Shown here one piece after another: positions 10,330-33,170 of a stretch of 64,000 nt of DNA; the stretch's first letter is position 1; every line of letters starts with the position of its first letter. The position numbers and the translations under genes are program-made. The notes beneath the pieces are model-generated. The model was not told the origin of the DNA, did no database searches, and saw only the letters and a list, made by a program, of their open reading frames with translations. The stretch comes from Octopus vulgaris (Eukaryota). The DNA is taken from contig OX597830.1 in NCBI GenBank assembly GCA_951406725.2, positions 34,038,001 to 34,102,000 of the forward strand. The letters run 5' to 3'.

Positions 10330-10520
10330 ATGCTGCTGGACCACTGAAATCTACAAGTTACTTTCATTCTCTCACTGTTTATTTTATTCCTTTCTGCTGA
10401 AGAGCATAGGCTCGAAACATAAAAGACTTTATCATTTTCCCTAGCATCAAACTATTACACTTGCTTGTTGTTCATACATCCATTTTCATTTTTTGTTCTT
10501 CTATAAATTTCAACTATATA
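10330..10520 (+). mobile_element. Short (TA)n-flanked repeat with HHR-like motif (10390-10425)
   Basis: cttt-CTGCTGA-a-gagc(atag)gctc-GAAAC-ATA-aaag; homologous to 15535-15710 and 20395-20515 on the minus strand. Confidence 0.6.
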
Positions 10521-15534: not shown

Positions 15535-15710
15535 ATAGGGAGAATTCACAAAAAACAAATGAAGAAGACAGGGGGTGTAGACAACAAACAGATGTATTAG
15601 TATAATGCTCAGTAAGTGAAAAAGTCTTTACAGTTTCGAGCCTACACTCTTTCACAGAAAGGAACACAGAAACAAGGAGAGAAAATAAAGAATGTATAGT
15701 GGCTAGCGAT
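15535..15710 (-). mobile_element. Short (TA)n-flanked repeat with degenerate HHR-like motif (15626-15661)
   Basis: Minus strand cttt-ctgtgaa-a-gagt(gtag)gctc-GAAAC-tgt-aaag; same family as 10330-10520. Confidence 0.55.
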
Positions 15711-15724
15711 ATATATATATATAT

Positions 15725-15930
15725 AGTTAATCCAAACAAGAAAACACAAAAAAACAAAAAAAACACAGCAACGTGAGGACGTGGAACAAATAAAGTATTA
15801 TTGGACGCTCAGGAAGGGAAGAAAGAGGGTTTAACGTTTCGAGTGGAGCTCTTCGTCGGAAACATAGGAGAAGGAAAGATCCCGAGAAGGGAAGACAGAG
15901 GAAAAAAATTGGCAGTGGTACTCACGAGGT

Positions 15931-32642: not shown

Positions 32643-33170
32643 ACTTTTTCAGTAAAGATTGTTTGCCAACATAACATGACAGTCCTGGTTTAGGACTAAC
32701 ATTGCTGTAATTTAGCCCCAGGAGCCATCGTCTCCAGCTGGCTATATGACACAATCTGTGTCCTTATATTTTCAAACAAGGGAATCTAGTACCCCCACTC
32801 AACTCAAAACAATATCTGTGTATCGTGATTTCTGGGTTATTTCACTTCATCAGCACAGAATAATTGTTCAGCTGGAGTTGGCGCTGCCAAATTCCCATTT
32901 GAAATATATATTTTTCAAAGTGACAACTAAGTCACTGATTTATAAATTAGAAAGTTATTATCTCTAAATCTGACAACGTGAGATATTCAGCAACAGTACT
33001 TTGTAGTAATATTGTTTGCCTACATAACATGGAAGTCCTGGTTTAGGACTAATGTTGCTGTAATTTAGCCCCGGGAGACATCATCTCTAGCTGGCTATAC
33101 AGCATGATCTGTGTCCTTATATTTTCGAACAAGGGAATCTAGCACTTCCTCTCAGCTGAAAATAATATCT
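32643..33170 (-). mobile_element. Retrozyme-like partial tandem repeat (~355 bp period) containing an HHR
   Basis: Direct repeats ~32643-32817 and ~32998-33170; HHR at 32859-32815 at the junction. Confidence 0.65.
32815..32859 (-). ncRNA. Type I hammerhead ribozyme motif
   Basis: Minus strand tctgtg-CTGATGA-agtgaaataaccca-GAAA-tcacg-ATA-cacaga. Stem I is 6 bp and extendable, stem III atc(ac)gat, stem II weak. Confidence 0.7.

What the first reader, a model, noticed from the sequence alone, without database searches (positions are those of the whole stretch)
32643..33170. Retrozyme-like 1.5-mer whose boundary nearly coincides with the predicted self-cleavage site
Seen on the minus strand: the element starts at ~33170 (agatatt..), runs ~350 nt, passes an intact-core HHR (predicted cut between 32821 and 32820, AUA^cacagatatt), then repeats the first ~175 nt. 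The upstream copy begins about 3 nt after the position equivalent to the cut. Stem I extends imperfectly for ~40 bp (gggaat...tctgtg / cacaga...attccc). Established: metazoan non-LTR retrozymes are tandem monomers of a few hundred nt processed by HHRs into circular RNAs. Inference: this is a greater-than-unit-length reverse transcript of a ~350-nt self-cleaved or circular RNA.
Basis: partly seen in the sequence, partly recalled or inferred. Interest (0 to 1): 0.72.

Follow-up and report, generated by a model that had tools for sequence, protein, structure and literature searches.

The report
Decayed Penelope-pasted hammerhead retrozyme copy
This is one old, shortened copy of a 350-base repeat that is very abundant in this animal genome and carries a predicted self-cutting RNA motif; its copies have the ends typical of Penelope-type jumping genes, which likely pasted them in, and this copy's start beside the predicted cut is likely chance.

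Summary
In detail: a minus-strand 1.5-mer (33170 to about 32651, period 353, copies 85-86% alike) with a type I hammerhead core, predicted cut 32821/32820 and a long stem I. It belongs to a large dispersed family (1,669 exact 19-mer hits). The boundary claim fails: 67 genome-wide 5' breakpoints over 18 positions show no significant pile-up at the cut (7 there, mean 3.7, p=0.08), and 56 of 63 sampled arms that reach the cut run through it. The fixed ends are the 3' ends: 122 of 149 arms stop at unit position 165-180 or 218-234, and 48 of 58 inverted insertions have one of each. This is the Penelope 'tail' footprint, with 8-15-bp target duplications. An older subfamily keeps the ribozyme by compensatory change. 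This copy has one hammerhead, with damaged stems II and III, and is probably inert. Verdict: new family of known animal non-LTR retrozymes, likely mobilised by a Penelope-type enzyme; the partner was not found, and cleavage and circles are untested. The scan has reported similar families before, in this genome and in others.

The parts
32651..33170 (-). Whole insertion: 5'-truncated, non-inverted 1.5-mer of a ~350-nt non-coding unit (m4-m350, then m1-m170)
   Evidence: 9% and 6% diverged from the family's majority bases in the two units
32821..33170 (-). First, nearly full unit (m4-m350); its 5' end at 33170 is an ordinary truncation point
32651..32820 (-). Second, partial unit (m1-m170), ending at the family's 'short' fixed 3' end (inferred reverse-transcription start 1)
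   Evidence: 62 of 149 sampled arms end at m165-180; junctions
32946..33004 (-). Internal copy of the ~55-nt 'tail' (m171-m226), which forms the other outer end in other insertions (inferred start 2)
   Evidence: 60 of 149 arms end at m218-234; 48 of 58 inverted insertions have one short and one tail end
32815..32859 (-). Type I hammerhead motif: stem I, CUGAUGA core, extra A, 3-bp stem II with damaged middle pair, GAAA, short stem III with damaged palindrome, AUA triplet; predicted cut 32821/32820
   Evidence: sequence; family alignments; pair counts
32771..32903 (-). Extended imperfect stem I (~45 bp) enclosing the hammerhead
   Evidence: fold z = -4.4; 87-96% of cells paired per helix across 34 copies, against 31-45% for slid controls

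Best explanation
This is a decayed, 5'-truncated copy of an abundant 350-nt non-coding hammerhead repeat whose copies carry two fixed 3' ends, inverted arms and target duplications, and which was likely pasted in by a Penelope-like element's enzyme copying an RNA that was intact across the predicted ribozyme cut. Shown: the family, the two fixed 3' ends about 55 nt apart, scattered 5' ends, one-short-one-tail inverted insertions, 8-15-bp duplications, read-through of the cut, and conservation of the fold between two subfamilies. Inferred: (1) master arrays with two or more units are transcribed; (2) hammerheads pair through the stem III palindrome and cut as dimers, releasing ~350-nt monomers; (3) a host ligase closes them into circles; (4) a Penelope RT/GIY-YIG protein nicks AT-rich DNA on both strands about 10 bp apart and starts cDNA inside the RNA at m~170 or m~225; (5) synthesis passes the ligated cut and stops at random. 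Priming from both nicks gives the two-armed copies; here one arm ran about 520 nt. This copy has a single, damaged hammerhead and would not release a monomer by itself.
For: Copy number: 390 exact 22-mers of the core and 1,669 exact 19-mers, reversed controls 0. 3' ends: 122 of 149 arms in 85 loci fall in two clusters. 58 of 85 loci are head-to-head inverted; 48 of those 58 are short+tail, 1 tail+tail, 0 short+short, 9 with an eroded end. PMC11167929 (parts 1-2 of 4 read) reports that the tail is unique to Penelope-like elements, marks two internal RT start sites, and that both strands are nicked. Duplications: 32 of 121 loci share 10 or more nt between flanks against 7 of 2,000 random pairs. 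Read-through: 56 of 63. Ribozyme kept under selection: stem III pair U-A in 18 and C-G in 13 of 34 copies, the palindrome stays a palindrome (ATCGCGAT / ACCGCGGT), the triplet stays NUH (AUA / GUC), and a stem I extension pair is A-U in 17 and G-C in 13. Tandem units of one arm share 20% of their variants against 10.5% between loci.
Against: No autonomous partner was found: two young Penelope-type families (781-aa and 775-aa ORFs) show no nucleotide match to the unit, and no shared ORF-like flank was seen among 284 flanks. The covariation rests on two or three lineage events: the number of pairs with a double change (11) does not exceed shuffles (10.5, 241 of 500), although cells do (42 vs 24.8). 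The two units of this copy share only 1 of their 15 and 10 variants, so they give no support of their own for a single template. No clear target duplication flanks this copy. Only 2 of 85 sampled loci hold two complete hammerheads in one arm. A weak excess at m1 (7 vs 3.7, p=0.08) is not excluded. The genomic pattern cannot tell a circle from an uncleaved multimer.
Confidence: 0.75

Rival explanations
1. Same element and enzyme, but the template is a linear, uncleaved multimeric transcript; circles are not needed for insertion.
For: PMC11167929 found hammerhead cleavage unnecessary for insertion in vitro and unprocessed RNA the dominant substrate. Read-through of the cut fits equally well. bioRxiv 10.64898/2026.07.22.740005 saw cleavage in only 1 of 9 frog retrozyme dimers.
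Against: Source arrays with two or more complete hammerheads are rare (2 of 85), and the longest arrays contain 97-99% identical units that look like later local duplication (L006, L027, L029). Conservation of the dimer palindrome and triplet between subfamilies implies that cleavage mattered.
Confidence: 0.15
2. The copies are 5'-truncated terminal repeats (pseudo-LTRs) of an autonomous Penelope-like element, not an independent retrozyme.
For: Same tail and inversion footprint; pseudo-LTRs carry type I hammerheads (PMC4209133); retrozymes are homologous to pseudo-LTRs in frogs.
Against: Every long arm examined continues into the previous 350-nt unit, in both subfamilies. Flanks share no coding sequence; only 2 family loci have a distant PLE fragment nearby. 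Only 4 genome-wide hits have this core and stem II with other upstream letters (not examined further).
Confidence: 0.06
3. One reading: the 5' boundary is set by ribozyme cleavage, the enzyme running off a self-cleaved RNA end.
For: This copy starts at m4; 7 of 67 breaks lie exactly at m1; in the sample 7 of 63 arms started within 4 nt of the cut.
Against: The distribution over 18 positions is not distinguishable from flat (p=0.19); m7 and m8 have 7 and 8 breaks; m347-m4 holds 28 against 29.8 expected. Two of the 7 m1 breaks have 3-nt microhomology. Several apparent m1 starts were artefacts of stem I self-complementarity, duplicates, or aligning old copies to a young reference. In the older subfamily 1 of 8 hits broke at m1.
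Confidence: 0.04

Closest known systems
Metazoan non-LTR retrozymes (coral, mussel, axolotl; PMC7229834: passages, Results parts 1-2 of 3 and Discussion read)
   Same: Non-coding 150-450-bp tandem unit, GC under 50%, type I hammerhead, target duplications longer than 4 bp, thousands of copies, strongly self-paired predicted circle (z about -5.4); stem III of 2 bp with a palindromic tetraloop, as in the axolotl dimer type.
   Different: Mostly dispersed 0.5-1.5-mers with inverted arms rather than long arrays; stem I extends to about 45 bp; expression as a circle and cleavage are untested here. The passages read do not describe fixed 3' ends or a tail.
Endonuclease-positive Penelope-like elements (PMC11167929 parts 1-2 of 4; PMC4209133 parts 1-2 of 4; bioRxiv 2021.04.23.441226 passages)
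   Same: [quoted passage not shown]
   Different: No ORF; the tail is about 55 nt rather than 30-40; starts lie about 170 and 225 nt after the cut.
Vertebrate retrozymes as non-autonomous Penelope derivatives (bioRxiv 10.64898/2026.07.22.740005, parts 1-3 of 5 read)
   Same: Proposed Penelope dependence; co-occurrence with Penelope-type elements in the genome.
   Different: Their evidence is co-occurrence and pseudo-LTR homology in vertebrates; here it is the insertion footprint, and no homologous pseudo-LTR was found.

Membership tests
Metazoan non-LTR retrozyme | Non-coding tandem unit of 150-450 bp, GC under 50% | tested here: met
   Period 350-353; no non-microsatellite ORF of 150 aa or more in the window; the 2-kb bin is 34% GC
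Metazoan non-LTR retrozyme | Type I hammerhead in the unit | tested here: met
   76 of 121 core-spanning segments keep the full core, 53 of those 76 all three stem II pairs; compensatory changes between subfamilies; no Rfam hit
Metazoan non-LTR retrozyme | High copy number, with target duplications longer than 4 bp when present | tested here: met
   1,669 exact 19-mers; 49 of 121 loci share 8 nt or more between flanks against 69 of 2,000 controls; none clear at this copy
Metazoan non-LTR retrozyme | At least two consecutive complete hammerheads (the 'active' criterion of the 2026 preprint) | tested here: inconclusive
   Not met by this copy (one damaged motif); met elsewhere in the family (2 of 85 sampled loci; L005, L006, L027, L029)
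Metazoan non-LTR retrozyme | Self-cleavage and expression as linear and circular unit-length RNA | not testable with these tools
   Only assembled contigs of guessed RNA runs were available
Penelope-type insertion (mobilised in trans) | Tail on one end, inverted truncated arm, partial tandems | tested here: met
   48 of 58 inverted insertions are short+tail; same ends in the older subfamily
Autonomous Penelope-like element | RT plus GIY-YIG ORF between the terminal repeats | tested here: not met
   No ORF in or linked to the sampled copies; two young PLE families are unrelated in DNA sequence

The most novel reading that the evidence does not exclude
The family records the step that retrozyme models only propose: a Penelope-type enzyme priming from both DNA nicks at two fixed internal sites of a ligated 350-nt RNA circle and reading through the healed ribozyme junction, with the dimer-type hammerhead held under selection across at least two subfamilies and no homologous autonomous element evident in the genome.
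Probability: 0.45. Interest if true: 0.5.

Novelty: new member of a known kind. Interest (0 to 1): 0.3.

Why it matters
It is an ordinary decayed copy, but the family gives countable genomic evidence that animal retrozymes are pasted in by Penelope-type enzymes, which the papers read propose but do not show by insertion footprint. It names the two likely priming sites (about 170 and 225 nt after the cut) and shows that the template is normally intact across the cut, so circle against uncleaved multimer becomes a direct test. It also warns that a boundary near a ribozyme cut in one copy is not evidence of cleavage.

Tried and rejected
Cleavage-defined 5' ends: a first look suggested an excess at m350-m2; the genome-wide scan did not confirm it (of 76 hits, 6 intact copies with indels and 3 duplicates were dropped, and the rest were called by eye). 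An apparent excess in the older subfamily came from aligning to a young reference. Partner search: Pfam GIY-YIG scan (150 of 6,136 candidates scored), 781-aa family, 775-aa family, flank all-against-all and tblastn, variant-core patterns: no partner; the search is far from exhaustive. RNA: no RNA holder listed on record; contigs of four guessed-RNA runs hold family sequence, often joined to unrelated flanks, and cannot show strand, ends or circles. Laying the likely DNA runs on this locus gave no result, so presence of this insertion in other individuals is open. Rfam: nothing. Target duplication at this copy: only an 8-mer set back from the junction, rejected. Earlier findings by sequence: none. 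Six paper searches listed no description of a cephalopod retrozyme; supplements and Repbase were not seen and could hold one.

Full report
Observation. On the minus strand the element starts at 33170 and repeats with period 353; the copies are 85-86% alike. Rfam finds nothing at its thresholds. I number the unit from the first base after the cut (m1); the copy is m4-m350 followed by m1-m170. The genome is a 2.8-Gb animal assembly; earlier AI notes call it octopus-like, which I did not test.

The family. The first look of a DNA search returned 3,596 candidates, 40 of them scored. Exact patterns gave 390 hits for a core 22-mer and 1,669 for a 19-mer at m49-67, with 0 in reversed controls. With about 4% divergence at stable columns this suggests a few thousand arms (inference). 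For a sample not chosen by structure I took 95 of the first 100 listed 19-mer hits, all on contig C1, as 90 loci; 3 overlapping loci and 2 duplicates were dropped, leaving 85.

The fixed ends are the 3' ends. Of 149 arms, 62 end at m165-180 and 60 at m218-234. Fifty-eight of 85 loci are head-to-head inverted, and 48 of these have one short and one long end; 1 has two long ends, none two short ends, 9 have an eroded end. Flanks share 10 or more bases in 32 of 121 loci against 7 of 2,000 random pairs, so insertions make duplications of about 8-15 bp. A tail on one end and an inverted truncated arm are the described footprint of Penelope-like elements (bioRxiv 2021.04.23.441226, passages). PMC11167929 reports that the tail lies between two internal RT start sites and that the protein nicks both strands. 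This copy ends at the short site and has no inverted arm and no clear duplication.

The 5' boundary. A pattern that catches young-subfamily copies broken between m11 and m344 gave 76 genome-wide hits. After dropping 6 intact copies with indels and 3 duplicates, 67 breaks (called by eye) spread over 18 positions: mean 3.7, 7 at m1, 4 at m4, 7 at m7, 8 at m8; chi-square p=0.19, and p=0.08 for m1 alone. A small excess at the cut is possible; a pile-up is not seen. In the sample, 30 anchored arms stop before the cut, 7 start within 4 nt of it and 56 run through; some of the 7 are alignment artefacts. In the older subfamily 1 of 8 hits broke at m1. The template is therefore normally intact across the cut.

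The ribozyme. Family copies read CUGAUGA-A-GGG-loop-CCC-R-GAAA-UCGCGA-UA, with a palindromic stem III. PMC4209133 and PMC7229834 link this design to cleavage as dimers. Seventy-six of 121 core-spanning segments keep the core and 20 also keep stem II and a perfect palindrome. An older subfamily, 75-84% like the young unit, has the same period and the same two ends but a different palindrome, a GUC triplet and G at the free position 7. Across 15 young and 19 old copies 89.7% of cells pair (slid controls 31-45%); cells with double changes exceed all shuffles (42 vs 24.8), but the number of such pairs does not (11 vs 10.5), so the signal is two or three lineage events. A mostly young set gave weaker support. 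This copy has lost the middle pair of stem II and the palindrome, holds one hammerhead, and is 9% and 6% from the majority bases: probably inert.

Template. Seventeen of 85 loci have an arm longer than one unit, 3 longer than 520 nt, and 2 hold two complete hammerheads. Units within an arm share 20% of variants (54 pairs, after dropping 5 pairs of 97% identity or more) against 10.5% between loci (p=7e-5, pairs not independent); this copy shares only 1. The longest arrays contain near-identical units, which suggests later local duplication. The unit folds strongly as a circle (z about -5.4, 40 shuffles). All this fits a circle, as proposed in PMC4209133 and PMC7229834, but also an uncleaved multimer.

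Partner. The genome holds many Penelope-type elements: a 781-aa RT plus GIY-YIG family and a 775-aa family (RT not scanned) whose end carries a different predicted hammerhead. Neither matches the unit in DNA, both are much younger (98-99% alike), and sampled flanks share no coding sequence. The partner is unidentified.

Comparison and verdict. It works like, and by the testable features belongs to, the animal non-LTR retrozymes; its insertions are of the Penelope type, in line with the 2026 preprint. It is not an autonomous element. Six paper searches listed no cephalopod retrozyme, but supplements and Repbase were not seen. The scan has already noted similar families in this genome and others, though none matched by sequence. 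New member of a known kind; interest 0.3.

Noticed in passing
window 10367-10509 and 15535-15725: Copies of another abundant repeat (75% and 87% like the 3' flank of L175). The first has a CTGAAGA...GAAA core at +10397 and may belong to the 'rewired hammerhead' families in earlier notes.
   Followed up: no
L246-L248 (G000:C1:27840000-27849999 and others): Young Penelope-type family, 775-aa ORF, tandem period 4,271, ending in TA microsatellites; it has a predicted type I hammerhead with a CCGAAGA core and palindromic stem III about 140 nt before its 3' end.
   Followed up: partly
L081-L088: Young Penelope-type family with an intact 781-aa RT plus GIY-YIG ORF in many copies; the 3' region has repeated TGACGTC and CCAAT-like boxes, and no canonical hammerhead was seen by regex.
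   Followed up: partly
Not tested.
   Followed up: no
one search hits, e.g. G000:C1:108263840: Six of 67 inversion junctions switch at the same stem I microhomology (m8), suggesting that the hairpin guides the joining of the two arms.
   Followed up: no
L006, L027, L029: Adjacent full units are 97-99% identical while other units in the same arrays are 87-96% alike: arrays seem to grow after insertion by local duplication.
   Followed up: partly
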